From a virus, in the IMG/VR virus record IMGVR_UViG_3300025115_000004, positions 14,045 through 78,044 of that record: 64,000 nucleotides of DNA; one strand, written 5' to 3'. Positions 2,803-34,019 of this stretch are shown here, in pieces; the stretch's first letter is position 1; every line of letters starts with the position of its first letter. A program made the position numbers and the translations under genes. A model generated the notes under the pieces. The model did no database searches. It had not been told where the DNA came from and was given only the letters and a program-made list of their open reading frames with translations.

Positions 2803-3354
2803 TTATTTTTCAAGTTTACCCATTACTCCGCGATCAATCCTCTCCTTCACCCGGGCATTAAGCCATAGCAAGGCCTCTTCCATCTTGGTAATAGCAAGTG
2901 CACCTTCTCTTGATGGAAACGCATTATTGAGCTTCTTGTGCCTGTCAATAAGGGCAATAAGCAACTGCTCACTCTGAAGACCCGGTGTCATCGATCCGTC
3001 ACTTTCCTTCTTCACAAATTGAATCCTCTGGAAAGAATTGTGATAACCGGTCTCGCCATTGTTGAACCCGGTACAGTTCTGAAAGTGATACTCATGAGCA
3101 CCGCCATACTCATCACCGCCCCTTGCTGCAATAGTGATCTTATTGCTGGGAAACACAGGGGACTGAAGTTTTGCGTCAAGAGGAAACGGCTCTCCCTCTG
3201 TCAGCAACAGCTCATGATAAGCCTCTTCGAATACCTCTTTCGGGCTCCACGACTCATACCCATCAGGGTAAATAACACGATAACCTTCGCGGCCATCTTT
3301 AACAGCAGGCTCTGCCTGAATTGTTTTTGTTCCAATGTACTTTTTCATAATCAC
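2803..3354 (-). CDS. tad1: Tad1-family anti-Thoeris/anti-CBASS nucleotide sponge with an extra N-terminal YIGTK/SWSPK domain
   Basis: C-terminal GGAHEY..IQF..PGLQSEQLLIALIDR..FPSREGALAITKMEEALLWLNARVKERIDRGVMG matches the Tad1 pattern; N-terminal KKYIGTK..GYRVIYPDGYESWSPKEVFEEAY. Confidence 0.8.
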   Translation of the reverse strand: MIMKKYIGTKTIQAEPAVKDGREGYRVIYPDGYESWSPKEVFEEAYHELLLTEGEPFPLDAKLQSPVFPSNKITIAARGGDEYGGAHEYHFQNCTGFNNGETGYHNSFQRIQFVKKESDGSMTPGLQSEQLLIALIDRHKKLNNAFPSREGALAITKMEEALLWLNARVKERIDRGVMGKLEK

Positions 3355-3369
3355 TTAATTTTTAAATAG

Positions 3370-3729
3370 TTAAAACGGACAATCGTTATCTTGCTTTGAA
3401 GAATTGACACTATAGTTCATAATCTGGATATTATCGTAAGAATAGCCCCTAGAGGAGTCTATCCTGTCTATAGACATCCCGGTCTTATGACGAGCTTTAA
3501 GCTCCATGTAACCGGTCTCCTGACAAAACTGGGTAAACTCCTCTATAGTCAAGGTAAACTCTTTCCTACGCCTCCTAGCATTATTCCTGAGAGCATTGAA
3601 TGTATATGTGATAGGAATTCGTTCCTTGTCAATCCTAGAACGACACTTATAACAGTATTTACCTTTACTAGGAGCTCGATCATTACGACACCATTTGGTA
3701 ATACATTTCTGCTTATTCTTTTTGGTCAT
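3370..3729 (-). CDS. HNH-like (His-Me finger) endonuclease with N-terminal Zn finger
   Basis: SIDRIDSSRGYSYDNIQ..N..K motif; Cys pairs; likely start ATG 3729 rather than 3810. Confidence 0.65.
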   Translation of the reverse strand: MTKKNKQKCITKWCRNDRAPSKGKYCYKCRSRIDKERIPITYTFNALRNNARRRRKEFTLTIEEFTQFCQETGYMELKARHKTGMSIDRIDSSRGYSYDNIQIMNYSVNSSKQDNDCPF

Positions 3730-3830
3730 GTCAGAAATTATCCTTACATTTGCCACGGTTAGGTTCATCAAATCCATCTGTTCGCGCTGGTAACGAGGAG
3801 GGGGCTTCAAAGCCCCCTCTGAGTTTTTAC

Positions 3831-5417: not shown

Positions 5418-5486
5418 ATTATATATTGTATATTGGGTAGTAGCGTCCCTTGGGCCATTGGTCGTCAGGGTTGGAATTTTCCCGAA

Positions 5487-5750
5487 ACATAAGCGGAACG
5501 CTTACATAACATAAGCGAAACGCTTATGTTACATTTATACTGATAATCAATTACTTACTATTTTCATTATGTCGATGTAAGCTAAACGCTTACATAATGT
5601 AAGCGAAACGCTTATGTACATAAGCTAAACGCTTACATTGACATAAGCGAAACGCTTATGTTCCATATGTATTGATAATCAATCAATTATATGTAACAAA
5701 ATAAAAATGTAAGCGAATCGCTTACATTTACATAAGCGAATCGCTTATGT
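5487..5750. repeat. Array of eight 21-bp palindromes (A(CA/TG)TAAGCG-N3-CGCTTA(TG/CA)T) with two IHF-consensus sites
   Basis: Units start at 5487, 5509, 5575, 5597, 5618, 5641, 5707, 5730; WATCAANNNNTTR at 5545-5557 and 5677-5689. Confidence 0.92.
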
Positions 5751-5764
5751 AATGAAATTTGTAT

Positions 5765-5772
5765 TATATTTG
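5765..5772 (+). promoter_or_regulatory. -7 promoter element TATATTTG of the RHH/terminase operon
   Basis: TAnnTTTG 18 nt upstream of ATG 5791; its -33 region lies under palindrome 8. Confidence 0.65.
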
Positions 5773-5790
5773 TCCCGTAAAACTTATGTT

Positions 5791-6126
5791 ATGAAGAAGA
5801 GTGTTACTTTTTATCTGGAGCAGGAGATCTTAGACGAACTCCTTATTATCGCCATCCAAAGAGGTACTACTCCCTCACAGGTTATCAGGGAGGCTGTAAG
5901 AACTATGGTGAAGTCTCAGACCAAACCTGATCCGATTGTATCCCTCAAATCTGATCCTATCTCCATACCGGGATCGGTGTTGACCGAGGGGGATATGTAC
6001 AAACATCGCCAATTCTTCAAGGAGAAGGGTATCAACATAGCTGATGTCCTCAGGGCTCACAGAAGTAAATCTCGTGGTAGGCCTTACGACACTTCTATGG
6101 AACCTTACTTCATTTATCTGACATGA
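5791..6126 (+). CDS. Ribbon-helix-helix (CopG/Arc-like) DNA-binding protein
   Basis: KKSVTFYLEQEILDELLIIAIQRGTTPSQVIREAV is an RHH pattern; start moved to ATG 5791, downstream of the promoter. Confidence 0.75.
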   Translation: MKKSVTFYLEQEILDELLIIAIQRGTTPSQVIREAVRTMVKSQTKPDPIVSLKSDPISIPGSVLTEGDMYKHRQFFKEKGINIADVLRAHRSKSRGRPYDTSMEPYFIYLT

Positions 6127-19311: not shown

Positions 19312-22300
19312 ATGCGTAGTACTGAAGGACAGAAATATACAGCCTCCTTATTCTTTGGTGGTTTGGCTAGGGATATAGATCCCGAAATGTTAGATCCTAA
19401 AACAGGAGCCTTTCTTGAGGCTCATGGTATGAGGATCTCTAATATGGTTAAGAATATATTGACCAAGTTACCCGGAGATAAGGAGTTTATCACTGCTACG
19501 GCTGTAGAGGCTAACATACTCACAGGATTGGTGTGGTTAAATGGTTATGTGGTAGAGTTTTGGCATGACACCTTAACAGGTTACGGTACTATAAGGGCTA
19601 ATGGGGTTGTTGTAGCCTCTTCCTTAGATATCCCCGGGGACGACTCCCACTGGTTGGATATAGATACTAATAGTGATACCGGGGAGTTATTCATCACGGA
19701 TAACAAGCAGTGTCCTGTGGTATATGAGTTGCCGGATTTATTAGCTAATGTTGCTACCCAAAAATACTTCACTAACTACGACAGGACGTTATACGAGATT
19801 AATAAACCGGTTCAGTTGAATCAACCTATGTTCGTGTCTCTGGAGGATCTTGGAGCTGCTGGAGGTTTAAGAACAGGCAGCTATGCTTACTCCATGTGTT
19901 ACTCTACTCTTAGTGGTGAGGATACCGCGTGGAGTCCTGTGTCGCCTTATATACCTGTACCTGTGGAGAATGTTACTCAGAGGAGTCTCCCTATTAGCGG
20001 TTATTACTCAGGTCTTGAAACCTATGGCTCTGAGCCATCTTTATCTCCTACTAGGTATGGAATTAGGTTGCGTTTGCGTGTGGTCAACAAGGCTGGGTTT
20101 GATTACATTAAGCTTAGGAGGGTTGAAAACGTTACTGGACAACCTCCAAGTTATACTCCTGCAGCTCAGTTTTTGATTCTTACAGTAGATGCTGGAGGTA
20201 CACCTATTGACATTAAACAGAACCCTTTCACTATAATAGATTTTGTGGATAGCAGTGCTCAGCAGTGGGCTGCTTTAGATACTTCTATAATAAATACTTT
20301 GAGTACCGTTAAGAGGGCTAGGACAATTAGATATTACGATAGAAGGATTATTCTAGGGGGTGTGGAGTATATGCCTAAGACCTTGTCATCCGAGGATATA
20401 TTTATACAACATTCTGGTGTGGCTAAGGTACTATTTCCGGTTGTTGAGAGGTTAAATGCTGATGGTTTTGCAGATATCCAGAATCAGGTATTTAAGAAAT
20501 CACACAGGCTAGGTGAGAGGTATGGTTTTGGTCTAAAGCTTAGGGACGAACAGGGGAATGATCTATACACAATACCTTTAAAGAAGGGGGCAGAGGATTA
20601 CACAAACTATTTATTTCCTCAACGAAGAGACGCTATTCCAGCAAGTGAATTATCCTTTTCTTCGAATCCTTTGATTGATTCTACAGTAGAAAGTAACTCC
20701 GCGGGGACTAAGACACAATATTCTTATCCTATCCTTATTCATAATAGTAACTGTGTGATGACTCCTTTGAGTCAGAATTCGGTATCTTTCAGTATACCGA
20801 ATTTCAAATCTATTATGAACATACCTTCTAACGCCTCTATAAGTAGCACATTTGTAGGTAAATGTAACACATTATCAGGTATTTATGAGGCTATAGATAA
20901 TGATTACCCGTTCAGTATTGAAGGTAGTTTATTGGATAACGGTTCTTCCGTGGTATATACCTCCGGGACAGATACTTTGACTTTTACTATTATATACTCC
21001 AGCGGGGATATCTTTGACGAGAGTCCTATCCAGATTTTGTCAGGGACAGCTACTTTTCTACAGTTAATGTGCCAATATACTGTACAGTCGTCATATGACT
21101 ATGTATATGACCCAGTTACTGCTATTAGGACTGCGAAGACAGGGACTCCGTCTAGTGATGTCAACATTATCGAAGACAGTAATAACTATCCTTATAATCC
21201 TCTAACTCCCACCGGTGTCGGTGGTGGTTCTGGGGGTAGAGGCAACAATTATGAGGGGCATAGGATTGAGGTGATGGATACCATTGAGTCTACTAATAAT
21301 GTGGTAGGTAAGTATGGGGTACATAAATCTACTGTGGGGGTAAGTATAGGGGGTTTAGATCTATCTAAACTACCTGACTATGTTAAGTCTTTCAGCGTGG
21401 TAAGGACTCCTCCTGCTGGGCGTGTGGTGTGTCAGGGTATAGGTATGTACGCTTTGGTCCCTCAGAATTATGGGGATACTTCTCCCGGGCTTGTTAAACA
21501 TTTAAACAGGTTGTGGTTTTATTCTCCTGAGCTTGATCAGGTAATAGGGGATAAGGCTCATCTATTCGATGATATTGCTAATAATCCGAGTAACTATCAA
21601 ATTCAATTAGTGTCCCCTTGCGGCTTTTTCACTGATGTCTATTCTTCGGAATATATACTACCACCAATACCATCACCTCCTATAGATAGATACACCCACA
21701 TGGATATGGTTTCTATGCCTATATCTGGGGCTGACACTAATGTGGCTGATATGAGTCCTATGGATAGCTCTGATCAGATAGGGGTAGCTGGTAGGATCAC
21801 TTTCGGTAAATGGAGGAATCAATCAAATCAAGGTAGCGGGATTACTTCTAGTACAGATAAATACATATACGATATAACAAGTGCATCTACTGCTATACAT
21901 GGTAAGTTCAGGTTACCTTACTTAGAACTAGCTCTTGGGGCTAATATCTATTATACCGCTAACGTTGGTACGGTGGCAGGTACTAATTCTGGGGCGAGAG
22001 ACTTTCATGAGCCTTGGTATATTGTGAACATCATACAGACAGGTAAGAATATTATTTCCGGGAATATAGACACTTACAATGAGATAGGTCATAATATACA
22101 TATAAGCAGTGTGTTGGGAGTAAGTAACGGACTGTTTTCACAATCCTTTGAACTGCTCGAGGAACGTCCTGAAGATGTGACAGGTCTAGGTACCTCTGCT
22201 TCACAATATAGGTACATCTATGTGGACGGGGAGCCTTGGCTTAGCGGTAATAATATACCTGTAGGGAACATCAACACATATAGAGCTGATCTTTTGAATA

Positions 22301-24069
22301 ATGGATCGTTCACTCCTTCAGGTGGTTTGACCTGTTATGGTTTATATCAAGTTACGGGTCGAACTATAACTTTTCCTTACCTAATGCCCGGATCAGGTAC
22401 GCCTATTGTACCGGTAATCGGTACAGAGATTGTTGTCAGATATAATCCTAATTCTCCTATTAAGGTTTTCTTAGGGGATACTGTGGTGGGGGAGGCTTCT
22501 TTCCTTGCTGTTGATGGTGAAGGTGGAGGTAAGGGAGTGTCTAATTATACTACACACTTTAGGATGGCCGCTCCTATGCCTCAATTAAACTTTACCTTGC
22601 ATGCCAATTATCGTCAGCCTTATGATCCGGCTAATACTCTGGGAGGTACTTTAAAGGCTATAGAGACAGTTACTTCCTTCCAGTTGGGGTGGATAAGACA
22701 ATGGTTGGTTATGTTCACCTGCGAAAGTACAGTGAACTTACCTATGGTGTATAAGGATATGTTCCCCAGACGTAATTATGTTATGCGTCCTAAGTTCTTT
22801 GCCGCTAAATTAGACTCTGAATCGATCAATGATTACCTTGAAAGACATCTCACTTACCTTGATTATAATGTAGACTATCCTGATGAGATATATAATTGGG
22901 CCTACGGAGGGTTTCATACCCCTTCTGGATCTAATTTTGATTACCAGAAGAATCTTCCTTATAAAGGGTTCACAAAGCCTAAGATAGGTTCTATAGATCT
23001 GTTGAGTATGATGAAGAGGCTCCATTGGTCTACTGAGACGAGAGTGGGTTTCAGATTTAGCAGGGTATTTATTCCTTTGAATGTCTATGACCTCCGTAAT
23101 GATAAAGCCTCTCAGATAAGTATTTTATATGACGAATTCTCGGAGAAGGGGTCGAATCTTTATGTGATTACTGATAGGGGTGTTGGTATGCTTCTAGTGG
23201 GTAAGAAGATGCTATCTGATGCTGGTGGTAACGCTTTAACTATCAGAGCTTCTGATGCTACCTTTATCGGTGGAGAGGTATGGTTAAGTAATGGTATTAG
23301 TTGCCCGGACGATTATTGGAGAGGTAAGTCAGAGGGGATTATCAAAGCCCCTAATAATATTAAGATGCCTGTACTGATCTTCCCCACAACTAGGGAGATT
23401 ATCATGTTGACTAACAATACCTTCATGGATATCTCAACAAATAATCGACAGGTTATCTCGGACGCTCTGAAGGGTATAGGTAGCAACAACATGTTTAGTG
23501 TTATTGACGAAGAGTTAAATGCTATGCATATACACCTAAATGGTTATATGTATAGTTTTAATATGGATATCAATAATTGGGATTTCTCTTTACATAATCC
23601 TTTATATGTGAAATCTGTATACACCCCTTATCTGAATGGTGTCAACGATAAGTCTGTGGTTGCTTCTGTGGTTGTAGATGATTTAGTGGAGGAGAGATCT
23701 GTAGTGATTTCCAGCTCATTACCTGCGAGGGTCACGTTATCTGACTCTATACCTTATGTTTCTTTCTCGGTAACTCCGGGATTAGCCTCCTCTTATGAGT
23801 TTGTTGATATATTTATAGGGGCTAGTTATAAACCGGCTAAAATTGTTCTATCCTTGGAGAGTGATTTTTCAGTGGTATCAGAAGTATTACAGGCAAAAAT
23901 TAATCAGTATGCTCCCGGGTTATGGGAGGCTAAGTTACCTAGGTTAAGTAATAGTAAGAGATTGGTTGGCAAGACTTTATATGTCTCGGTTGTTTTACCG
24001 GACGATCATGCTTTTGTCTATGATCTTAAATGGGTAAAAATAGGTTATAAAGATATCATTGGGGGTTAG
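19312..24069 (+). CDS. Tail stabilisation/muzzle-like protein
   Basis: 1585 aa, beta-rich; N-terminal F.GGL..D.DP..L.P..G.F.EA..MR typical of P22 gp10/crAss muzzle-type proteins; adjacent to IHF. Confidence 0.7.
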   Translation: MRSTEGQKYTASLFFGGLARDIDPEMLDPKTGAFLEAHGMRISNMVKNILTKLPGDKEFITATAVEANILTGLVWLNGYVVEFWHDTLTGYGTIRANGVVVASSLDIPGDDSHWLDIDTNSDTGELFITDNKQCPVVYELPDLLANVATQKYFTNYDRTLYEINKPVQLNQPMFVSLEDLGAAGGLRTGSYAYSMCYSTLSGEDTAWSPVSPYIPVPVENVTQRSLPISGYYSGLETYGSEPSLSPTRYGIRLRLRVVNKAGFDYIKLRRVENVTGQPPSYTPAAQFLILTVDAGGTPIDIKQNPFTIIDFVDSSAQQWAALDTSIINTLSTVKRARTIRYYDRRIILGGVEYMPKTLSSEDIFIQHSGVAKVLFPVVERLNADGFADIQNQVFKKSHRLGERYGFGLKLRDEQGNDLYTIPLKKGAEDYTNYLFPQRRDAIPASELSFSSNPLIDSTVESNSAGTKTQYSYPILIHNSNCVMTPLSQNSVSFSIPNFKSIMNIPSNASISSTFVGKCNTLSGIYEAIDNDYPFSIEGSLLDNGSSVVYTSGTDTLTFTIIYSSGDIFDESPIQILSGTATFLQLMCQYTVQSSYDYVYDPVTAIRTAKTGTPSSDVNIIEDSNNYPYNPLTPTGVGGGSGGRGNNYEGHRIEVMDTIESTNNVVGKYGVHKSTVGVSIGGLDLSKLPDYVKSFSVVRTPPAGRVVCQGIGMYALVPQNYGDTSPGLVKHLNRLWFYSPELDQVIGDKAHLFDDIANNPSNYQIQLVSPCGFFTDVYSSEYILPPIPSPPIDRYTHMDMVSMPISGADTNVADMSPMDSSDQIGVAGRITFGKWRNQSNQGSGITSSTDKYIYDITSASTAIHGKFRLPYLELALGANIYYTANVGTVAGTNSGARDFHEPWYIVNIIQTGKNIISGNIDTYNEIGHNIHISSVLGVSNGLFSQSFELLEERPEDVTGLGTSASQYRYIYVDGEPWLSGNNIPVGNINTYRADLLNNGSFTPSGGLTCYGLYQVTGRTITFPYLMPGSGTPIVPVIGTEIVVRYNPNSPIKVFLGDTVVGEASFLAVDGEGGGKGVSNYTTHFRMAAPMPQLNFTLHANYRQPYDPANTLGGTLKAIETVTSFQLGWIRQWLVMFTCESTVNLPMVYKDMFPRRNYVMRPKFFAAKLDSESINDYLERHLTYLDYNVDYPDEIYNWAYGGFHTPSGSNFDYQKNLPYKGFTKPKIGSIDLLSMMKRLHWSTETRVGFRFSRVFIPLNVYDLRNDKASQISILYDEFSEKGSNLYVITDRGVGMLLVGKKMLSDAGGNALTIRASDATFIGGEVWLSNGISCPDDYWRGKSEGIIKAPNNIKMPVLIFPTTREIIMLTNNTFMDISTNNRQVISDALKGIGSNNMFSVIDEELNAMHIHLNGYMYSFNMDINNWDFSLHNPLYVKSVYTPYLNGVNDKSVVASVVVDDLVEERSVVISSSLPARVTLSDSIPYVSFSVTPGLASSYEFVDIFIGASYKPAKIVLSLESDFSVVSEVLQAKINQYAPGLWEAKLPRLSNSKRLVGKTLYVSVVLPDDHAFVYDLKWVKIGYKDIIGG

Positions 24070-25254: not shown

Positions 25255-26979
25255 ATGGCAGATAATCCCAGTGTTGTAAGTGATGCCTCAGGAGGTAACT
25301 ACAGCGGTATATTAGACCAAACTAATTTAGCTAGTGCAGCTAATATGTCTTATCTGGAGAATCTGTGGGAACTTGCTCAGAAGGCTGCTCCAAACACTCC
25401 TGCCAGTAACCCTTATAGACCATCTGCTGGTGAGGGGGTTAAAGTGGGGGGTATATCGAACCAAACTTTAGGTAGTGTGGATTTGTTTGCTTCCGGTTTG
25501 GCTAAGATTCCTTTTGAGGTTCTGGATCAGATGGAGAAGGCCAAACAGGATGCTGAAGCTAAATATTATAAAGAGGTAAAGACCTATCTGGATAAGCCTA
25601 TTGCTGATATTACAGCCAAGTTGAATAATCCGTTTGCTCAGAAAGATTTTGTTGAGAAGATACAGGGGACCATGGATGCTTATCTGGATTCCTATGCGAA
25701 TAGATTTGGGGGTGATTACATGAAGGCCTATGCAGCTGCTGTTAGTGACCCTAACTTGAAGAGGACCATGGCTCTTTACCAGAATTATGCGGATGCTTAT
25801 AACATGGTATTTACGGATGTGGTAGACCTATTAAAAAAGTCTGCTAATCCTACTGAGTACTATGTACCTGACGAGATGAAACAAAGAGCTAATAGGTTCT
25901 TACAGAACCACGGGGATATGAAGAATCTTTCCATCGATAAACTGGCTCAGAACATTGATCAATTCAAAGAGGATTTATCAATATATAAGATTGTTCAGAC
26001 CGCGATGAAGGACTTTAAAGATTCTGTGTATGAGAGTTATCCATATAAAGACACTAACATCTCTACAGATGAGGAGGATGTTTATATTCAAAAGACAGTA
26101 ACAGGTAAAGAAGGTGGGGCTCAATCATTTATCAATTCTATAGTAGAGGCTCATCCGTGGATTAAGAGTGATCCGATTCAAATGTCTTTATTAACCTCCT
26201 TGGTTACCAACTCTATGAAGCATGATGTTAAATATGCTATTAGTAAGGTCAAAAAGGATAGTGCTGAGCGTACATTGGATCTGAAGAAGTATGGGATTAT
26301 GAACGATAAGGGAGAGATTCAGTTCAATACCAAACCAGCCGCGTTGGTTAATACTTTAGCTTATGATGCTGTGAATTATCCGAAACAGGATAAACCTATA
26401 CCAACTACTGTAGGGGCCTATGCTTACTTCATTAACAACGGGAAGTTGTGTTACGGTAAGTTACCTGAATCGTACCAGATGATCCCTGTATCTGAATATG
26501 ATATAAGGCAGGATGATAAGATTGTGAGGGGTAGGTATGTAGAGGGTAAGATAGCTTTTCAGAGTTCTCAACCATTCAAACCAGAACAGATTAGAACGGC
26601 TTCTTCACAAGGGGTGTTAACTGATGCTAGGAAGATTGGAGAGGGTAGAGGTACTACTGAAGTGGTGCCTACTAAGATATTTGATGAATTAAGCGGGTCT
26701 GAGATATCAGTGTTTGGTGAAACTACTGTTCTTATGCCTTTTGAACAGATGAAGGGACAGATAGCTGGTGCCATACCTCATATGAGTTATGTGCATGAGA
26801 AACTGGATGAAAAGAGGGGTGGTGTACATATGAAAGCAGGAACACCTGAAGTGCCTATAGGTGTGACAGAGGACACTGACCTATCAGATATAAATAACAG
26901 TCCGTTGGTTTATTATAGGCTATGGAATGGTAACGTAATGACTGGGCAGGCTATTCATAATATGTATACGAAGAAATGA
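25255..26979 (+). CDS. Ejection/cargo protein 2
   Basis: 574 aa, helical; middle of a small-medium-giant cargo trio. Confidence 0.6.
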   Translation: MADNPSVVSDASGGNYSGILDQTNLASAANMSYLENLWELAQKAAPNTPASNPYRPSAGEGVKVGGISNQTLGSVDLFASGLAKIPFEVLDQMEKAKQDAEAKYYKEVKTYLDKPIADITAKLNNPFAQKDFVEKIQGTMDAYLDSYANRFGGDYMKAYAAAVSDPNLKRTMALYQNYADAYNMVFTDVVDLLKKSANPTEYYVPDEMKQRANRFLQNHGDMKNLSIDKLAQNIDQFKEDLSIYKIVQTAMKDFKDSVYESYPYKDTNISTDEEDVYIQKTVTGKEGGAQSFINSIVEAHPWIKSDPIQMSLLTSLVTNSMKHDVKYAISKVKKDSAERTLDLKKYGIMNDKGEIQFNTKPAALVNTLAYDAVNYPKQDKPIPTTVGAYAYFINNGKLCYGKLPESYQMIPVSEYDIRQDDKIVRGRYVEGKIAFQSSQPFKPEQIRTASSQGVLTDARKIGEGRGTTEVVPTKIFDELSGSEISVFGETTVLMPFEQMKGQIAGAIPHMSYVHEKLDEKRGGVHMKAGTPEVPIGVTEDTDLSDINNSPLVYYRLWNGNVMTGQAIHNMYTKK

Positions 26980-29900
26980 AATTAAAGGATATTTTCACCG
27001 AAGATCCCAAGAACCCGGGAGTAAAAGATTATTGGAAGGTTCCTCAGGAATCTGTCACTATTCCTATGGCTCCAGCTACCACAACTCCGGCTGCTACTCC
27101 ATCACCTAAGTTGAAGGATTTCCTCTCCGAGGATTTGAATGCTCCTAAGGTTCAACCTACTGATAGATTTGTATCTAATCATATAACAAGTCCTGTTGTG
27201 GATGAGATGTTTAGATTGGTGGATGCTGGGGTAGAACCTATGCAAGCTATCAAACAGCTACAGGATGCTCCGGATACTCGTGTGGCTTATATCGAACAGG
27301 TTGCTTCTGAGATGGTGGGGAGGGATATGATAAAGTTACTAACCTTACCTGATGATTATCGTAGTTTTCGGGGACCATCATGGAAGAAGGTTAAGGACAA
27401 TATAACTGAATCGGGGGGTATATACAGGGATGATGAGAAAGATTTATATAAGGAAGCTGTACGTAAGCACGCTAGGAATAGCCTTTCGGTAGGGTGGATA
27501 AATAGGGCTTTTGATACATCTTATCATAGGGTGGGGGAAGCTTTCGATCCTGAGGATAGTACATTTGATAAGATGACAGATAGTGCTTATGAATATGTGA
27601 CTCCGATGCTTTCGCCTGAGATGCAGAAGAGGTTCCAGATTCAGGATCAGATAGATGCAGAAAATGCAAAGTCTGTTGAGGACGGTAAGGATTATAATAA
27701 GATAAAGGCCTTGACTCAGCAGTTAAACTCTACAGGTAAGACGTATACCGATATGGACGGGAACGTCATAGAGACTGCCGATATGTCCAAGGTCTCCGCG
27801 GAGGATAAGGACTTCCTCAAGATGATTCAGGATAAAGAGTCTGAACTAGAGCCTATAAGGACTGATAGGGAGAGGTTACGGGATGTGTTTATGGAGCATT
27901 ATGCTTATACCCGAGCTCTAGAGGAGATATATCAGGTGGAGGTTGCCCCAAAATTAGGGGCTGCTACAACCTTTATGCATGCTGGTATGAGTCCGGCCGA
28001 GCTTCCTAGAGATCAGATAATGACCAAAGAGAATTGGGATTTGATGGATAAGTACAGGGAGGCTAGAGCTCATCTACAGGCTATTGGATCTATGTATATG
28101 GCTAATCGGTCTCCTTTGGATGTTAAGAGAGATTTTGGCTTCTTCTTAGGTGATGCTGTGGAAAGTGCTGGTAGAGGATTGTTTGGGGACCGTATTATGA
28201 ATTCCATATACGATTCTCTGGAGAAGGATGGTGATACTAGGTCGACAACAGAGTTAAGGGCCCTCTCTGCGGTGATAAGTTCTAACGAACTTCCTACTTC
28301 TGAGGAGATGTCTAAGCATCTTGAACCTACGTTCTTTGAGATGGCTAATCAGACAGTCTTTGGGGTTTTAGGTATTCTTCCAAAGTTATATATAGCTAAT
28401 GTGGCCGGAGCAGGCCTTGCAGGTCAAATAGGTCTTATGAGGTATATTGACCCGGTTAAAGGTTTGTGGACTACGGGTACCAGATTTCAGCAGGCTAATG
28501 CTGCAATCGCGCGTATAATGTTTGAGGAGGCAAAAATGAGGATGGTAGGTCTTCATGCTGGTTCGGGGGCTGGTTTTGGTCTTGCACACGAAGCTCAGAT
28601 GCGTATTAATATGCCCGGAGTTCCGGCTTATCTCAACACTTTCATGAATTTTATGAAGAAACCTTTTCTCATGACCTCGTCTATGTATGTAGCTAAAATG
28701 ACAGAGGCTACCTTTGAGTATATTATGTCTGATGAGGAGATGAGTACTATTCTTGATAGGTACTATGGAGGAGGTTTCAAGGAGTTAGGGGCAACATTCG
28801 CGGCCAATATGGTATTGGGTATAGGTAGTTATGGTACTCCTAAGAACAGATATCCGGAACTTCTTAAGATGGCTGAACAGTTGGAGAAGGACGGTAACAA
28901 GGCAGAGTCTATGCAGATAAGGTCTACTATCCAACTTATGCAGAAGATGGATAAGGCAGAGGAAGCTGTAAAATCAGAAGCTAAGTGGAGGGGGTGGAAC
29001 GAGAAAGAGACTCAGGCTAAGCTTGTTGAAACTCAGCGTAAGGTGACTAGTGAACATAGTGCTTCTACCACGGCCATGATGGAAAGACATAATATTTTGG
29101 AGAGGACTATTCCTGAAGCTGATTTAGCTAAAGCATTGAGTAAGACTAAGATGGTTGATACTGAAGGTAAACCTCAGGTATGGATATATGATACTGATGC
29201 AGTATTTAATCTATTCGATACGCGGGTGGCTCAGAAGAACAGTAAGACAAAGAAGAGTGCTCCCGGACGTGCGCAGGGTATGGTATGGTTTACTTTGGAG
29301 CCTGAGTTTAGGATGGGGGCTAATAGACATTACAGGTATCTTAACTTTGAGAAACCTAAGGATGTGGGTAATGTTAGATCTTTCAAATTTTCTGCGGACA
29401 ATATTGAGGCCCTTAAGAGACAGGGTTATGACGGTATAACCGGTTATGAATGGTACACTAACTCTAAGGGTGAGAGGGTTAAAGCTAAAGTAGCTGCATC
29501 TTTTGGTACTCAGGGGATAGTAAAGACGAGAGAAGGGTCTGCATCCGCGGGGGCTCCTGAGGTTCTGCGTGAGTGGGCCACGAAGATCAGGGAACATAAA
29601 GGATTTAACGATCCTAAACCGGGTGAAATTTATCTGAGATTGCCGTATCAGGAGAAGGTAATTAACGGGGCTATGGAGGCTGCTGCCAAGACTCTAGAGG
29701 CTACTGCTAGTATTGTGGAGGCGGTTAATAAGGCTATTGAGCATGTTAAGTCGACAGACTGGTATAAGTCTATGGCACCGGAGGTACAGGCTAAGTATGA
29801 TGCAGAGATGGCGGTTAGATTTAAGCAACTACTAGAGCAACAGAAACCAGCAGAGATTGCTAAGTCTGAGATGGCTAAGGCTGAGGCTATGGTTAAGCAA

Positions 29901-32900
29901 GCTGAGTCTGAGGTAATGCCTGCTTTTAAGAGTACAGGGGAGGAAGTCGCGTCTAAACATAGGGGGGAGTTTGTTACTGATATTAAGAAACCGGAGAGTA
30001 TCGTAGAGAAGAGATCGAGAACAGGTGCTTGGGATGTATTAGACATCGAAGATGTTGTACGCGGAGCTCTGATTCTTAGGGACATGAAGGATTTTAAGGA
30101 GGCTTCTAAAGATCTTAAGAAAATGGGTTATACTATTCATAATAAGAGGGTAGGGAATAGTGAAACCGGATTTAAGGGTGTATGGGCTACGAAACGTGAA
30201 GGTGAGTTAGGCACTGAGATACAGATCCATACAAAAGAGACTTGGGAGGCACATCAGAAGGCTAATGCCCTTACCAAGGAGTTTAGAGGTAAACAAAAAG
30301 GGGCTGATATCAAAGCCGAAGAGTCTACTGTCAAGATTCAAGAGAAGAAAGAAGTAGAGAAAGAATTCGAGGCGGCTACTCCTGAGAGTTTTATTAATAT
30401 GGATACCACCCCTTTAAAGGGTACCCAATATGCTGTTCTTACCGCGGAGAATCCGGGTAATCAACAGGCTTCGGCAAAAGAGAATGCCAAGAAGAACAAG
30501 GAGCTCATGGAGGAGTTGAAGAAAGCTGGTTATAAACCTATACCTGTGAAAGGTAACTACAATGGTAAATCAGAGAGTTCTTTCATTATACCCGGGATGA
30601 CTGAAGCTGAGGCGTTAGCTATAGGTAAGAAGTACGGACAGGAGAGTGTGATCACTACGAAGGGTATGATCTTTCAGGACGGCACTATGCATAAGGCTGA
30701 GCCTACCATTAATTTTGATCCTAATAAGGAGGCTGACTATAGCATTATCAATCTGGGGGGTAAAGAGGTAAAATTCTCTTTAGAGTTTGATTGGATTAAC
30801 AAGATACCTACAGAGTCATATTCTTCTAGGTATACGGCTGCTATGTCGGAATCTAGATCTCTGTACGATAAAGCTTATGAAGGGTTAGAGTTGATTAATC
30901 TGGAGGGTAGTCCGGCTAAGACAGCTCTAGAGCGTAAGATGAAGGAGTTAGAGCTTCCGGTATCTACTCAGAGGGAGATAAAGACTTCTTGGAATGAGAC
31001 CAAGAAGAAGCTTCTTACAGATCTGAGGGAAGATAATGCAGCTATAAAAGGTGCTTTTAACGAGTTCATTAAGACTCTTCCATTAACCGAGGTTCATGGG
31101 TTGAACATCAAGCTTAAACCGACTATGCTTCGTAGGGTTAATGCTATAGATCCTATGAAGCCTAAATCACTGGAACGCGCTATAGAGTATTTTGATAATA
31201 TAGTCAACAATGCTGCTGCCCGTCTTAATGAAATAGAGATACAGAAGTCATGGGATTATCTTGATAAGAAGACCAGTGATATGGCTATTAAGCAAGATAA
31301 TCTGATTAGAGGTAAGTTTAGTTCGGAGGGGGCACCTCTGATAGATGTTTTGACAGGTATAAGGAAGAGTATGATAGAGGGTAACTATTATGACGCACAA
31401 CAGAAGATTGGTGAGATACTTCTCTCAGCTGATAGAGAAGGGAGACCCTTATCTATAGGTGAGTATAATCAGATATCAGAGTTAAAGTTTCACGGTCTTC
31501 TTAACGAGACAGGAGGTCTAACCGCTACTGCAGAGTACTATAAGGCAGCTGTAGCTGATCTGAAGTCTATAAGGACTAAGGGACAACATATGATTGCTGC
31601 TAAGAGGATGGTTAAACAGGCTCAAATGAATGAACTGTTCTCAGAGGTTAAAAATATTCTGGATGGTAAACCCGGGAAGCCCGTTTCGTATGATCAGAGG
31701 GTAGCTTCTAATAGGACTCTCTCTGTAGGGGAGAAGATGAGTCGTATGACAGATATTACATATTTTGACAGTTGGTTTACTATATTAGATAAGTTATCTA
31801 AGTTTGACAAATCTAGTCAACCCTATCAATCTACTTTAAACAAGGTTTATGGAGGGGCCGTGGTTGAATCGAATATGGGTTATCACATTGATTCTAAAGC
31901 TTTCCATAATGAAACTATTACTACGGCTAAGAATATATTTAACACAAAGAGTACAACGGCACTTAATCGTAAGCTTAAGGAACACTCTATCAAACTATAT
32001 GATATATCTAAGGAGTTTCAGGAGGTTACAGGAAGTAAGGAGAATCTATCTATTACTATGAATCAGGCTTATAAAGTTTGGATGGATATGCAGGACCGTA
32101 CAAATATGAGAGCTTTGGAGAATAGTGGTTATTTCAAGAACGGGGAAATGACTTCATTAGGACATAAGATAGAATCTATATTAACTCCTGAAGTTAAACA
32201 ATGGGCTGAGTGGCAGTTAAATGTCTTCTATCCTAAGATGTATGAATACCTTAATCCTTCTTATAGGGAGTTTTACGGTATTGATATGCCGTTCAATGAG
32301 AAATACTCACCCAGATTTGTACAGAATCCTGCTACAAAAGGTATTCCGGAGCATGAGTTATTAGCTTCCCAGACTCTGATGACCTCGATTAAGAATAATC
32401 ATCTTCTTACTAGGACTAATCATGGTCATAAACTGAGCTTCATGGACGGGGATAAAGTTCTTACACAATATATTGATAAGATGTCTTACTGGAAGAACTG
32501 GACCCCTACTATACAGTTGTTAAATGAGTCTTTTATCAGGAATGGTGAGATTAGGATGGCTATTGAGCAGAATTTTGGTCCCAGATATTTAAAGAATATT
32601 GAAGGTTTTATGTATGATTACAGTAAGAAACCTAAACAGGATTATACTAAATTCTTAGCCCCTTTTGTAAATAATATGGCGGTAGCTACCTTATCTTTAA
32701 AGATACCTGTAATGTTAAAACAGTTAACGTCAGCCCCAGCGTATCTAGAAAATATGCCTGTGCTTGAGTATGGTAGGTATTTCTCCGAGATATTCTCTCA
32801 CCCTGTAGAGACTGTAAAGACTATGAAGAGATTATTAGATAGCGATTATATGCAGCAGAGGTATAAGACAGGGTGGGATCAGACTGTTACGGCTGTCATG

Positions 32901-34019
32901 GCGAGAGATTTAAATAGTCTCTCGGGGCAGAGTAATTGGCGTAATTGGCAGAATACTATGATGTTCACTGTTAAGTATGGTGATGCTGGTGCTATATTAC
33001 TTGGGGGTTTCCCTTTATATCGTTATGAGTATGAACAGGCTATGAAGAGGTTAGGACCCGGGAGTGAGCGAATGGCCGAGATGATCGCTATTAATAAGTT
33101 TGCAGACGCTACTAGGAATGCTCAACAGGCTGGGGAGGTTTATGACTTATCTAACTTTCAAAGAGATAACACCCTTACAAGGGCTTTGAGTATGTATCGG
33201 ACAGCTCCTATGCAGTACCACAGGAAAGTTATTGGTGCTTATAGGAATTCTCTTCATGGTAGGATGTCTTGGCAAGATGCAACTAAAACAATAGCTTTGT
33301 ACCATGTAGTCCTCCCTTCTTTATTCCAATTAGCTTCTAACGGGTTTAGGTGGGATAATGATGATCAGCTGTGGGCAGCTGTCTTAGGTAACTTTAATAA
33401 CGTCTTGGTATATGGTGATATAGTCGCAGGCGTAACAAATGCTATTAGAGGGCTTCCATGGAATTATCAGATGACTCCTATGCAAGAGATAGGACTTACT
33501 GCTCAGGATGCTACTAGATATTTTAAAAAGTTGAATAGTCCTAGCGGTATAGATAATTATCAGATGACTCCTATGCAAGAGATAGGACTTACTGCTCAGG
33601 ATGCTACTAGATATTTTAAAAAGTTGAATAGTCCTAGCGGTATAGATGATTTATCTAAAGATGTCTTTGAGGAGGCAAAAAACATAGATCAAGTTAATCT
33701 TACAAAGGGGTTAATTGAAGTAAGTAAGTTGTTTGGTTATCTTACTGGTACACCTGTTCCGGCTATAATGTCTACAGGAAAAGGAATAAACGATTGGTTA
33801 GACAATAATACAGAATATCCTCTTCTCCGTATAATGGGTTGGTCAGAGAGTGCTTTGAAGGGAGATCCCTCAAAATTTGATACTACGGAGGATCTTGAGG
33901 TGGTGAGGAATTTACTAGATCCATCTAAACCTTCGATGGATCAGCTACAAAAGATAGCTCCGGTTACTCCAGCTTTATCTCCTCAACAGAGTGTGAAACT
34001 GAAGGATATAATCAAATAA
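26976..34019 (+). CDS. Giant polyvalent cargo protein with ART-PolyVal-like, RelA/SpoT-like and DUF3293-like domains
   Basis: SK.VD.EGKP..GYDGI (~29140-29525); KKPESIVEK..DVVRG..EIQIHT (~29940-30290); AVLTAENP..EN...N..L..GKKYGQESV (~30420-30700). Confidence 0.8.
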   Translation: MKLKDIFTEDPKNPGVKDYWKVPQESVTIPMAPATTTPAATPSPKLKDFLSEDLNAPKVQPTDRFVSNHITSPVVDEMFRLVDAGVEPMQAIKQLQDAPDTRVAYIEQVASEMVGRDMIKLLTLPDDYRSFRGPSWKKVKDNITESGGIYRDDEKDLYKEAVRKHARNSLSVGWINRAFDTSYHRVGEAFDPEDSTFDKMTDSAYEYVTPMLSPEMQKRFQIQDQIDAENAKSVEDGKDYNKIKALTQQLNSTGKTYTDMDGNVIETADMSKVSAEDKDFLKMIQDKESELEPIRTDRERLRDVFMEHYAYTRALEEIYQVEVAPKLGAATTFMHAGMSPAELPRDQIMTKENWDLMDKYREARAHLQAIGSMYMANRSPLDVKRDFGFFLGDAVESAGRGLFGDRIMNSIYDSLEKDGDTRSTTELRALSAVISSNELPTSEEMSKHLEPTFFEMANQTVFGVLGILPKLYIANVAGAGLAGQIGLMRYIDPVKGLWTTGTRFQQANAAIARIMFEEAKMRMVGLHAGSGAGFGLAHEAQMRINMPGVPAYLNTFMNFMKKPFLMTSSMYVAKMTEATFEYIMSDEEMSTILDRYYGGGFKELGATFAANMVLGIGSYGTPKNRYPELLKMAEQLEKDGNKAESMQIRSTIQLMQKMDKAEEAVKSEAKWRGWNEKETQAKLVETQRKVTSEHSASTTAMMERHNILERTIPEADLAKALSKTKMVDTEGKPQVWIYDTDAVFNLFDTRVAQKNSKTKKSAPGRAQGMVWFTLEPEFRMGANRHYRYLNFEKPKDVGNVRSFKFSADNIEALKRQGYDGITGYEWYTNSKGERVKAKVAASFGTQGIVKTREGSASAGAPEVLREWATKIREHKGFNDPKPGEIYLRLPYQEKVINGAMEAAAKTLEATASIVEAVNKAIEHVKSTDWYKSMAPEVQAKYDAEMAVRFKQLLEQQKPAEIAKSEMAKAEAMVKQAESEVMPAFKSTGEEVASKHRGEFVTDIKKPESIVEKRSRTGAWDVLDIEDVVRGALILRDMKDFKEASKDLKKMGYTIHNKRVGNSETGFKGVWATKREGELGTEIQIHTKETWEAHQKANALTKEFRGKQKGADIKAEESTVKIQEKKEVEKEFEAATPESFINMDTTPLKGTQYAVLTAENPGNQQASAKENAKKNKELMEELKKAGYKPIPVKGNYNGKSESSFIIPGMTEAEALAIGKKYGQESVITTKGMIFQDGTMHKAEPTINFDPNKEADYSIINLGGKEVKFSLEFDWINKIPTESYSSRYTAAMSESRSLYDKAYEGLELINLEGSPAKTALERKMKELELPVSTQREIKTSWNETKKKLLTDLREDNAAIKGAFNEFIKTLPLTEVHGLNIKLKPTMLRRVNAIDPMKPKSLERAIEYFDNIVNNAAARLNEIEIQKSWDYLDKKTSDMAIKQDNLIRGKFSSEGAPLIDVLTGIRKSMIEGNYYDAQQKIGEILLSADREGRPLSIGEYNQISELKFHGLLNETGGLTATAEYYKAAVADLKSIRTKGQHMIAAKRMVKQAQMNELFSEVKNILDGKPGKPVSYDQRVASNRTLSVGEKMSRMTDITYFDSWFTILDKLSKFDKSSQPYQSTLNKVYGGAVVESNMGYHIDSKAFHNETITTAKNIFNTKSTTALNRKLKEHSIKLYDISKEFQEVTGSKENLSITMNQAYKVWMDMQDRTNMRALENSGYFKNGEMTSLGHKIESILTPEVKQWAEWQLNVFYPKMYEYLNPSYREFYGIDMPFNEKYSPRFVQNPATKGIPEHELLASQTLMTSIKNNHLLTRTNHGHKLSFMDGDKVLTQYIDKMSYWKNWTPTIQLLNESFIRNGEIRMAIEQNFGPRYLKNIEGFMYDYSKKPKQDYTKFLAPFVNNMAVATLSLKIPVMLKQLTSAPAYLENMPVLEYGRYFSEIFSHPVETVKTMKRLLDSDYMQQRYKTGWDQTVTAVMARDLNSLSGQSNWRNWQNTMMFTVKYGDAGAILLGGFPLYRYEYEQAMKRLGPGSERMAEMIAINKFADATRNAQQAGEVYDLSNFQRDNTLTRALSMYRTAPMQYHRKVIGAYRNSLHGRMSWQDATKTIALYHVVLPSLFQLASNGFRWDNDDQLWAAVLGNFNNVLVYGDIVAGVTNAIRGLPWNYQMTPMQEIGLTAQDATRYFKKLNSPSGIDNYQMTPMQEIGLTAQDATRYFKKLNSPSGIDDLSKDVFEEAKNIDQVNLTKGLIEVSKLFGYLTGTPVPAIMSTGKGINDWLDNNTEYPLLRIMGWSESALKGDPSKFDTTEDLEVVRNLLDPSKPSMDQLQKIAPVTPALSPQQSVKLKDIIK
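33462..33647 (+). repeat. Exact in-frame 93-bp tandem duplication
   Basis: 33462-33554 is identical to 33555-33647 (NYQMTPMQEIGLTAQDATRYFKKLNSPSGID twice). Confidence 0.95.

What the first reader, a model, noticed from the sequence alone, without database searches (positions are those of the whole stretch)
2803..3354. Tad1-type immune-signal sponge fused to a second candidate sponge domain
Seen: the C-terminal ~115 aa carry the Tad1 signature (GGAHEY, IQF, LL..L.DR, F.SRE.A.A.TK.EEAL.WL..R...RI.RGV.G). The N-terminal ~50 aa are a separate YIGTK...GY.V.Y.DGY.SWSPK.VFEEAY module. Known: Tad1 sequesters gcADPR (Thoeris) and several CBASS cyclic nucleotides, and I recall the YIGTK/SWSPK module commonly fused to DUF2829/Tad2 proteins. 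Inference: a two-domain multi-sponge in which the N-terminal module binds a different signal, widening anti-defence range.
Basis: partly seen in the sequence, partly recalled or inferred. Interest (0 to 1): 0.8.

Follow-up and report, generated by a model that had tools for sequence, protein, structure and literature searches.

The report
Tad1 sponge with sponge-associated N-module
A phage gene joins a genuine Tad1 immune-signal sponge to a tiny, extremely conserved domain of unknown function that, across thousands of phages, is fused almost only to signal sponges, which makes that domain a good candidate for a further anti-defence activity.

Summary
The minus-strand ORF 2803-3354 (likely start ATG 3348, 181 aa) has two domains.

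**Tad1 domain (residues ~65-181).** It is a real Tad1:
- Solved Tad1 chains match at E ~8e-12 over nearly their full length.
- The AlphaFold model (pLDDT 93.6) matches the CbTad1 fold.
- Both cyclic-trinucleotide-site residues are kept. Two of the four gcADPR-pocket residues are kept.

**N-module (residues 1-47).** It is a separate module with no Pfam family.
- A profile of it finds 6,334 protein clusters.
- It is also the N-domain of RyR Tad (gp68) and of N4 gp49. It also occurs alone and in tandem.

**What the literature says.** A 2026 preprint crystallised this domain in gp68 as a strand-swapped dimer. It reports an unknown function and no anti-type I Thoeris activity for the domain alone. 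A 2025 preprint excluded sponge homologs carrying a PDB 6E3C-like domain, probably this one.

**Verdict.** "Multi-sponge" is plausible but unproven. My odds:
- about 0.4 that the module binds a second small signal;
- 0.25 that it is a pure scaffold;
- 0.2 that it binds a protein.

The gene is a new variant of a known kind. Interest is moderate to high.

The parts
2803..3348 (-). Coding sequence of the two-domain protein (181 aa plus stop codon 2803-2805). An alternative GTG start lies at 3354.
   Evidence: ORF list and translation. Homologs start MKxYIG. 100% self-match in the 78-kb viral record.
3208..3348 (-). N-terminal sponge-associated beta-module, residues 1-47 (YIGTK ... GYxVxYPDGYESWSPKxVFEEAY), short form.
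   Evidence: Profile of stand-alone modules matches at E 7e-23. The family has 6,334 representative clusters. AF2 gives strands 2-5, 9-17, 20-26 and 32-36 and helix 37-43, with pLDDT 95-98. Homologous to the gp68 N-domain.
3157..3207 (-). Linker, residues 48-64. Its length and sequence vary among fused homologs.
   Evidence: Alignment A1 shows 12-30 variable residues here. This stretch has the lowest pLDDT block of the model, 74.
2806..3156 (-). Tad1 domain, residues 65-181 (beta-sheet followed by a two-helix hairpin).
   Evidence: phmmer against PDB Tad1 chains 7uav, 8kbh and 8kbe gives E ~8e-12, covering 12-122 of 125. Foldseek top hits are 8kbf and 7uaw, E 4e-6 to 9e-6, TM by target about 0.7. 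Stand-alone Tad1 proteins of 123-130 aa are 65-75% identical to it.
2848..2961 (-). Acb2/Tad1 helical hairpin, residues 130-167. It carries R147 and T154 (cyclic-trinucleotide site) and R166. R170 of the gcADPR/CDN pocket lies just C-terminal of it.
   Evidence: Pfam PF24729 scores 28.6 bits against a cut-off of 27. Residues were mapped from the HMMER alignment to CbTad1 and the residue list in bioRxiv 10.1101/2023.11.15.567273.

Best explanation
The gene encodes a two-domain anti-defence protein of an uncultured 78-kb phage.

Shown: the C-terminal 115 residues are a genuine Tad1 domain. The N-terminal 47 residues are a separate, widespread module, joined by a variable linker.

Inferred for the Tad1 domain: by homology it should assemble as a trimer of dimers. 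It should sequester cyclic trinucleotides, because both site residues are kept. It probably also sequesters gcADPR-type or dinucleotide signals, through a partly altered pocket.

Inferred for the N-module: it is an autonomous unit that forms a strand-swapped dimer, as in RyR Tad. It carries a second binding activity of its own. The most likely target is an immune signalling small molecule other than 3'cADPR, which would widen the range of defences neutralised by one protein. The ligand is unknown.
For: **Tad1 domain**
- Solved Tad1 chains match at E ~8e-12 over nearly the whole chain.
- Pfam hairpin PF24729 matches.
- The AF2 model has pLDDT 93.6 and its top Foldseek hits are all Tad1.
- R90, T97, R109 and R113 of CbTad1 align to R147, T154, R166 and R170.

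**N-module: autonomy and link to sponges**
- Among 91 representative module proteins of 105 aa or more, the only Pfam families found are Tad2 (27), Acb4 (13), Sequestin (7) and the Tad1/Acb2 hairpin (1).
- Among 80 IMG/VR loci there are 21 module+Acb4, 20 module+Tad2, about 20 module+Sequestin and 1 module+Acb4+Tad2. About 11 are stand-alone ORFs of 57-71 aa with no sponge gene within 3 kb.
- Across all module proteins collected, 112 are stand-alone and 4 are tandem.
- Nearly identical modules (76-82% identity) sit on four different sponge domains.
- Stand-alone Tad1 proteins 73-75% identical to the window's C-domain exist, so Tad1 does not need the module.
- The same fusion logic led to the discovery of Sequestin (bioRxiv 10.1101/2025.07.12.664507).

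**N-module: conservation**
- In 150 clusters that are under 50% identical to one another, G22, W34 and F40 are 100% conserved. Y23, Y27, Y31, S33, S35, P36, G6 and Y44 are 99% conserved. K8 and A12 are 98% conserved.
- The module is 62% identical between a Clostridium phage and a metagenomic phage. It occurs in phages of Enterobacteria, Vibrio, Pseudomonas and Bacteroides and in crAssphage. This pattern fits an invariant small ligand better than a fast-evolving host protein.
Against: - gp68 residues 1-86, which carry a divergent copy of the module, had no activity against type I Thoeris. The authors call the domain a fold of unknown function.
- The module is acidic on average: net charge -2.1 in the family and -2 in the window copy. 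Known nucleotide sponges have positively charged pockets.
- No ligand, pocket or oligomer could be computed here.
- No solved sponge resembles the module by sequence or fold.
- In the Tad1 domain, two of four gcADPR/CDN-pocket residues are replaced (F82 to L140, N92 to G149), so its own ligand range is uncertain.
Confidence: 0.4

Rival explanations
1. The N-module is only a structural add-on. It is a strand-swapping dimerisation domain that cross-links or stabilises sponge oligomers, raising avidity, solubility or half-life. It has no ligand of its own.
For: In the RyR Tad crystal the N-domain swaps strand beta1 into the partner protomer, and both domains contribute to the dimer. The C-domain alone gives full anti-Thoeris activity. 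The module is almost always N-terminal: 221 N-terminal against 14 C-terminal. Modelled alone, residues 1-10 leave the sheet, as expected for a swapped strand (one search compared). The module is acidic.
Against: Stand-alone 57-71 aa ORFs lie inside long contigs without a nearby sponge gene, and tandem modules exist. Tad1, Tad2, Acb4 and Sequestin oligomerise on their own. Polar residues K8, S33, S35, K37 and E41 are nearly invariant, which is more than a fold needs.
Confidence: 0.25
2. The N-module binds a protein rather than a small molecule. The partner could be a host immune component such as a TIR or cyclase sensor, an effector, or the Panoptes machinery that punishes sponges. It could also be RNA polymerase, as for Tudor-like domains. 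The module would then deliver or guard the attached sponge.
For: The weak best structural neighbours are protein-binding small beta domains: the Mfd RNAP-interacting domain (Z 3.7-3.9), CarD/CdnL (Z about 3) and chromo or Tudor domains. Tad3 to Tad8 show that phages also block Thoeris by direct protein binding. An activity needed by every sponge would explain the exclusive link to five unrelated sponge families.
Against: All structural matches are below Z 4, which is within the range of chance. Sequence conservation is very high across phages of distant host phyla, which is unusual for inhibitors that co-evolve with host proteins. No partner is known.
Confidence: 0.2
3. The module has little biochemical role. 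Its conserved coding sequence serves mainly as a recombination handle for swapping the downstream sponge cassette between phages, as in polymorphic toxin loci.
For: Modules 76-82% identical at the protein level are joined to four different sponge domains, always at the 5' end of the gene.
Against: Protein-level invariance of specific residues, a confidently predicted fold, and stand-alone and tandem forms all indicate selection on the protein. DNA-level conservation was not tested.
Confidence: 0.05

Closest known systems
Tad1 (Thoeris anti-defense 1; CbTad1 PDB 7UAV/7UAW/8KBF, CmTad1 8KBB)
   Same: Full-domain sequence homology and the same predicted fold: a beta-sheet plus a two-helix hairpin. 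Residues R90 and T97 (cyclic-trinucleotide and hexamer site) and R109 and R113 are conserved, and so is the interface Trp (W162).
   Different: It carries an extra 47-residue N-terminal module and a linker. Two pocket residues differ (F82 to L, N92 to G). Identity to solved Tad1 chains is only 30-36%.
RyR Tad (gp68 of Pectobacterium phage vB_PatP_CB1), bioRxiv 10.64898/2026.06.04.730250
   Same: It has the same N-terminal module. BLASTP of P0003 residues 1-65 against gp68 residues 4-71 gives 32% identity and E 7e-7. The window's residues 19-49 match at 46% and E 3e-6. The architecture is also the same: module, then linker, then a gcADPR sponge.
   Different: Its C-domain is a RyR Repeat12-like helical sponge (PF02026), not Tad1. 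Its module is a divergent long form (G6S, K37Q, Y44N).
Phage N4 gp49 and p-crAssphage QIN93284
   Same: Both are model-phage proteins with the same module at the N-terminus of a sponge domain.
   Different: Their partners are Tad2 (PF11195) in N4 gp49 and Acb4 (PF13876) in crAssphage LMMB, not Tad1.
Sponge-sponge fusions (Acb4-Tad2 of phage Pm86, Tad2-Sequestin, Acb4-Sequestin of Ab09 gp59)
   Same: Two small oligomerising anti-signalling domains on one chain, joined by a flexible linker, which broadens the range of signals blocked.
   Different: In those fusions both halves are proven sponges. Here the N-terminal half has no known ligand.
Phage L decoration protein Dec (PDB 6E3C, OB-fold)
   Same: Hadary et al. 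excluded sponge homologs carrying a '6E3C' domain, and 6E3C is Dec. Some annotations and an Atlas cluster name call the module 'Dec protein'. There is local similarity: GYLVxYPDGYESWSPKxVFEEAY against GYLFRSQYGELLYMSKTAFEANY.
   Different: The similarity measured here is weak: hhalign E 0.039 over 32 columns. Dec did not appear in the fold searches. There is no evidence that the module binds capsids.

Membership tests
Tad1 | Sequence homology to experimentally defined Tad1 over the whole domain | tested here: met
   phmmer against PDB gives 7uav, 8kbh, 8kbg and 8kbe at E ~8e-12, query residues 69-178 against chain residues 12-122 of 125. CmTad1 8kbb scores 5e-6.
Tad1 | Fold: antiparallel beta-sheet followed by a two-helix hairpin | tested here: met
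   The AF2 model has strands 86-96 and 99-111 and helices 126-143 and 147-173, with pLDDT above 90. The Foldseek top 20 are all Tad1, with TM by target 0.60-0.73. Pfam PF24729 scores above its cut-off.
Tad1 | Cyclic-trinucleotide and hexamer-interface residues (CbTad1 R90, T97) | tested here: met
   They align to R147 and T154 in the HMMER alignment. The residue roles come from bioRxiv 10.1101/2023.11.15.567273.
Tad1 | gcADPR/CDN pocket residues (CbTad1 F82, N92, R109, R113) | tested here: inconclusive
   R109 and R113 align to R166 and R170 and are kept. F82 aligns to L140 and N92 to G149, so both are replaced. The result depends on the alignment, which has a one-residue indel nearby.
Tad1 | Hexamer assembly and sequestration of gcADPR or cyclic oligonucleotides | not testable with these tools
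   This needs SEC-MALS and ligand binding or phage rescue assays.
Sponge-associated N-module (N-domain of RyR Tad gp68 and of N4 gp49) | Conserved core YIGxK..A.P ... GYxVxYxDGYxSWSPKxxFExAY | tested here: met
   The profile of 35 stand-alone modules matches the window at E 7e-23. All 16 invariant columns of alignment A4 are present in the window copy.
Sponge-associated N-module (N-domain of RyR Tad gp68 and of N4 gp49) | Homology to the crystallised gp68 N-domain | tested here: met
   BLASTP gives E 3e-6 for the window and 7e-7 for its close relative P0003 over the whole module. tblastn places the match at gp68 residues 4-68.
Sponge-associated N-module (N-domain of RyR Tad gp68 and of N4 gp49) | Strand-swapped homodimer | not testable with these tools
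   This is known only from the gp68 crystal described in the preprint. No coordinates are in the PDB copy.
Nucleotide-signal sponge (as a functional class), applied to the N-module | Small homo-oligomer with a deep, positively charged pocket that binds an immune signal | tested here: inconclusive
   The module is small, and gp68 is a dimer. However, net charge is -2 in the window copy and -2.1 on average in the family. Pocket and ligand could not be computed.
Tad2 / DUF2829 (PF11195), applied to the N-module | Match to the Tad2-like profile | tested here: not met
   The window protein has no PF11195 match at E up to 1. In fused proteins PF11195 covers only the part after residue ~66, not the module.
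Acb4 (PF13876), applied to the N-module | Match to the Phage_gp49_66 profile | tested here: not met
   None of the 27 fused or stand-alone relatives matches it. In module+Acb4 proteins PF13876 covers residues 75-150 only.
Phage L Dec OB-fold (PDB 6E3C), applied to the N-module | Profile or fold similarity to Dec | tested here: inconclusive
   hhalign of A3 against Dec gives E 0.039 over 32 columns, probability 1.3%. The A3 profile finds nothing in PDB sequences at E up to 10.

The most novel reading that the evidence does not exclude
The YIGTK/SWSPK module is an unrecognised, very widespread family of phage anti-signalling proteins, with more than 6,000 clusters and members in N4 and crAssphage. 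It would be either a new sponge for a signal not yet tested (for example His-ADPR, N7-cADPR, cyclic pyrimidines or a still unknown messenger) or a guard that shields sponges from sponge-sensing defences such as Panoptes. The Tad1 fusion in this window would then be a true dual-activity inhibitor.
Probability: 0.35. Interest if true: 0.8.

Novelty: new variant of a known kind. Interest (0 to 1): 0.58.

Why it matters
Sponge proteins are the main way phages silence nucleotide-based immunity, and new sponge families have been found through their fusion partners.

This gene shows that Tad1 also joins that fusion network. It points to one small domain that links five unrelated sponge families: Tad1, Tad2, Acb4, Sequestin and RyR Tad. 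The domain is present in model phages, has been crystallised once, and still has no function.

If the domain binds a signal, it could reveal a new immune messenger or a new counter-defence layer. If it is only a scaffold, it shows how sponge assemblies are built. Both outcomes can be tested with standard assays, for instance in phage N4.

Tried and rejected
- **Contig look-up.** A4 was used instead.
- **Is the module Acb4?** I first suspected this. It was rejected: no relative matches PF13876, and in module+Acb4 proteins PF13876 lies after the module.
- **Family libraries.** NCBIfam and PADLOC gave nothing for the protein.
- **PDB by sequence.** The module profile found nothing in the PDB at E up to 10. 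So there is no sequence-level link to Lockin, Tad3 to Tad8, TadIV-1, Acb2 or other solved inhibitors.
- **Fold searches with the N-domain model alone.** None was significant. Foldseek's best hits were E about 1 (chromodomains). VIA-align reached Z 3.7 in the wide search and Z 3.9 in the re-scored search (Mfd RID, DUF1653 3be3, CarD, Tudor).
- **Homodimer prediction.** Complex prediction on the N-module gave no verdict (score 0.09, mark 0.42). It is not used as evidence either way.
- **Similarity to Dec (6E3C).** hhalign against phage L Dec was weak.
- **Tad1 tree.** The tree of 120 proteins did not finish its careful search. The quick tree is poorly resolved and cannot say how often the fusion arose.
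- **Close relatives of the phage.** tblastn of the terminase found none among cultured phages.
- **Earlier findings.** The search of earlier findings returned only this same stretch.

Full report
**What is there.** The window is part of a 78-kb linear viral record, estimated 94% complete. The ORF at 2803..3354 on the minus strand is real. Relatives start MKxYIG, so the likely start is ATG 3348, giving 181 aa (P0001).

**The C-terminal domain is Tad1.**
- phmmer against all PDB chains returns only Tad1 entries. 7uav, 8kbh, 8kbg and 8kbe score E ~8e-12, with query residues 69-178 aligned to chain residues 12-122 of 125. CmTad1 8kbb scores 5e-6.
- Pfam finds the Acb2/Tad1 hairpin PF24729 above its cut-off.
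- An AlphaFold2 model built on 97 sequences has mean pLDDT 93.6. Its top Foldseek matches are all Tad1, with TM by target 0.6-0.73.
- I mapped the residues named in bioRxiv 10.1101/2023.11.15.567273 onto the window through the HMMER alignment. The chain numbering is offset by +1 from the paper's numbering.
  - The cyclic-trinucleotide and hexamer residues R90 and T97 correspond to R147 and T154.
  - The pocket arginines R109 and R113 correspond to R166 and R170.
  - F82 and N92 are replaced by L140 and G149.
- Cyclic-trinucleotide binding is therefore the safest inference. gcADPR and dinucleotide binding is likely, but through a modified pocket.
- Hundreds of stand-alone Tad1 proteins of 123-130 aa are 65-75% identical to this domain.

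**The N-terminal module is a separate, very common unit.**
- About 45 of the 120 best homologs share the two-domain layout. The linker between the domains varies in length.
- Pfam, NCBIfam and PADLOC do not know the module. PHROGs matches it only within families of unknown function.
- A profile of 35 stand-alone modules finds 6,334 clusters at E up to 1e-3, and 2,469 at 1e-10, among 1.84 billion representatives.
- In 150 representatives that are under 50% identical to one another, G22, W34 and F40 are invariant. Y23, Y27, Y31, S33, S35, P36, G6 and Y44 are 99% conserved, and K8 and A12 98% conserved. Mean net charge is -2.1.
- The window copy lacks a ~20-residue loop. The same short form is common in stand-alone proteins, so the loop is not part of the conserved core.

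**Its partners are sponges, and so far only sponges.**
- A search with the module of the close relative P0003 found it N-terminal to Tad2 (PF11195, the majority), Sequestin (PF21825), Acb4 (PF13876) and Tad1. Module identity was 76-82% across all four contexts. Pfam coordinates confirm that the sponge domain lies after the module.
- Among 91 representative proteins of 105 aa or more, only four Pfam families were hit, all sponge families: Tad2 27, Acb4 13, Sequestin 7, Tad1/Acb2 hairpin 1. Several of the rest look like diverged Tad2 or Sequestin. Others are unexplained.
- Among 80 IMG/VR loci I found 21 module+Acb4, 20 module+Tad2, about 20 module+Sequestin (four of four checked by Pfam) and one module+Acb4+Tad2. 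About 11 were true stand-alone ORFs of 57-71 aa without a recognisable sponge gene within 3 kb.
- Over all collected proteins the module is N-terminal in 221, alone in 112, C-terminal in 14, internal in 10 and tandem in 4.
- The ESM Atlas structure search independently aligns residues 1-50 (TM by query 0.86-0.94) to clusters carrying Acb4, Sequestin, Tad2, Tad2+Sequestin and a 193-aa Tad1-hairpin cluster of 121 members.
- Named examples:
  - N4 gp49 is module+Tad2.
  - crAssphage LMMB QIN93284 is module+Acb4.
  - Clostridium phage vB_CpeS-1181 gene 10 is module+Acb4, and the next gene is a Tad1.
  - vB_PatP_CB1 gp68 is module+RyR domain.

**What the literature already says.**
- bioRxiv 10.64898/2026.06.04.730250 (June 2026) names gp68 "RyR Tad". 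Its C-domain binds 3'cADPR. [quoted passage not shown]
- bioRxiv 10.1101/2025.08.24.671296 removed sponge homologs that also contain "PF21825 or PDB 6E3C". 6E3C is phage L Dec. Some annotations and an Atlas cluster name call the module "Dec protein". So that filter most likely refers to this module. My own hhalign to Dec is only weak.
- bioRxiv 10.1101/2025.07.12.664507 found Sequestin through its Pfam fusions to Tad2 and Acb4. A domain without a Pfam entry would escape that screen.
- I found no paper that assigns a function to the module or describes its link to all these sponge families.

**Structure.** The module is predicted as a small beta-sheet (strands 9-17, 20-26 and 32-36, plus 2-5 in the full-length model) followed by a short helix at 37-43. 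Searches of solved structures give nothing significant. The best matches are chromo or Tudor-like domains and RNAP-interacting domains at Z 3-3.9.

**Mechanism.**
- The Tad1 half is shown by homology.
- For the module I favour an autonomous second binding activity, most likely for a small immune signal other than 3'cADPR (0.4). The reasons:
  - it exists alone and in tandem;
  - Tad1 and the other partners do not need it;
  - it behaves like the other interchangeable sponge cassettes;
  - its polar and aromatic core is almost invariant across phages of distant hosts.
- Against this reading stand the negative gp68 test, which covered one system and a divergent copy, and the module's acidic charge.
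- The rivals are a pure dimerising scaffold (0.25), a protein-binding module (0.2) and a recombination handle (0.05).

**Context.**
- The gene lies in a leftward cluster of unknown genes. It sits 21 nt downstream of an HNH/EndoVII-like gene.
- The cluster faces a divergent region packed with 21-bp palindromes, next to an RHH-type regulator gene.
- The phage has no other Tad2, Acb4, Sequestin or module copy.
- It has no close cultured relative.

**Verdict.** The Tad1 call and the Tad2-fusion recollection are correct. The "second sponge" idea is reasonable but unproven, and it is partly anticipated by two preprints. The gene is a new variant of a known kind.

Noticed in passing
window 5485-5752: About eight copies of a 21-bp palindrome (ACATAAGCGAAACGCTTATGT, i.e. 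ATAAGCG-N3-CGCTTAT) fill the divergent intergenic region. On one side is the leftward cluster holding the Tad1-fusion gene. On the other is the rightward operon, which starts with an RHH/CopG-like ORF (5752-6126). This is probably an operator array controlling both operons.
   Followed up: partly
window 3370-3810 (-): An HNH/endonuclease VII-like ORF (phrog_3322, E 5e-18) ends 21 nt upstream of the fusion gene. Homing endonucleases next to anti-defence loci have been linked to their amplification (PMC13096335).
   Followed up: no
L086:1201-2039 (Clostridium phage vB_CpeS-1181): Gene 00010 is N-module+Acb4. The adjacent gene 00011, annotated 'ABC transporter ATPase', is a Tad1. Together they form a compact anti-signalling island in a Gram-positive phage.
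   Followed up: yes
proteins P0302, P0342, P0360, P0391, P0435, P0377, P0396, P0362, P0381: These N-module proteins have 60-160-residue partner regions that match no Pfam family and none of my sponge profiles. By the fusion logic they are candidates for further unknown anti-defence domains.
   Followed up: partly
proteins P0298, P0299, P0312, P0407; P0008, P0009: The first four carry two or three N-modules in tandem on one chain. P0008 and P0009 are three-part proteins with an extra ~85-residue N-terminal region before the module and Tad1.
   Followed up: no
alignment A1: P0017, P0019-P0022, P0028, P0034, P0045, P0049, P0064, P0091, P0119: In this sub-group of module-Tad1 fusions the SREGALAITKMEEAL helix is replaced by unrelated sequence. 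They have lost the Arg and Thr of the cyclic-trinucleotide site and no longer match PF24729. Their ligand range may differ.
   Followed up: no
window 19312-24069 and 26976-34019 (+): Two giant ORFs of 1,585 and 2,347 aa lie in a phage whose terminase has only remote matches (15% coverage) in the phage collection. This is an unclassified lineage. There is no Shine-Dalgarno sequence before the fusion gene.
   Followed up: no
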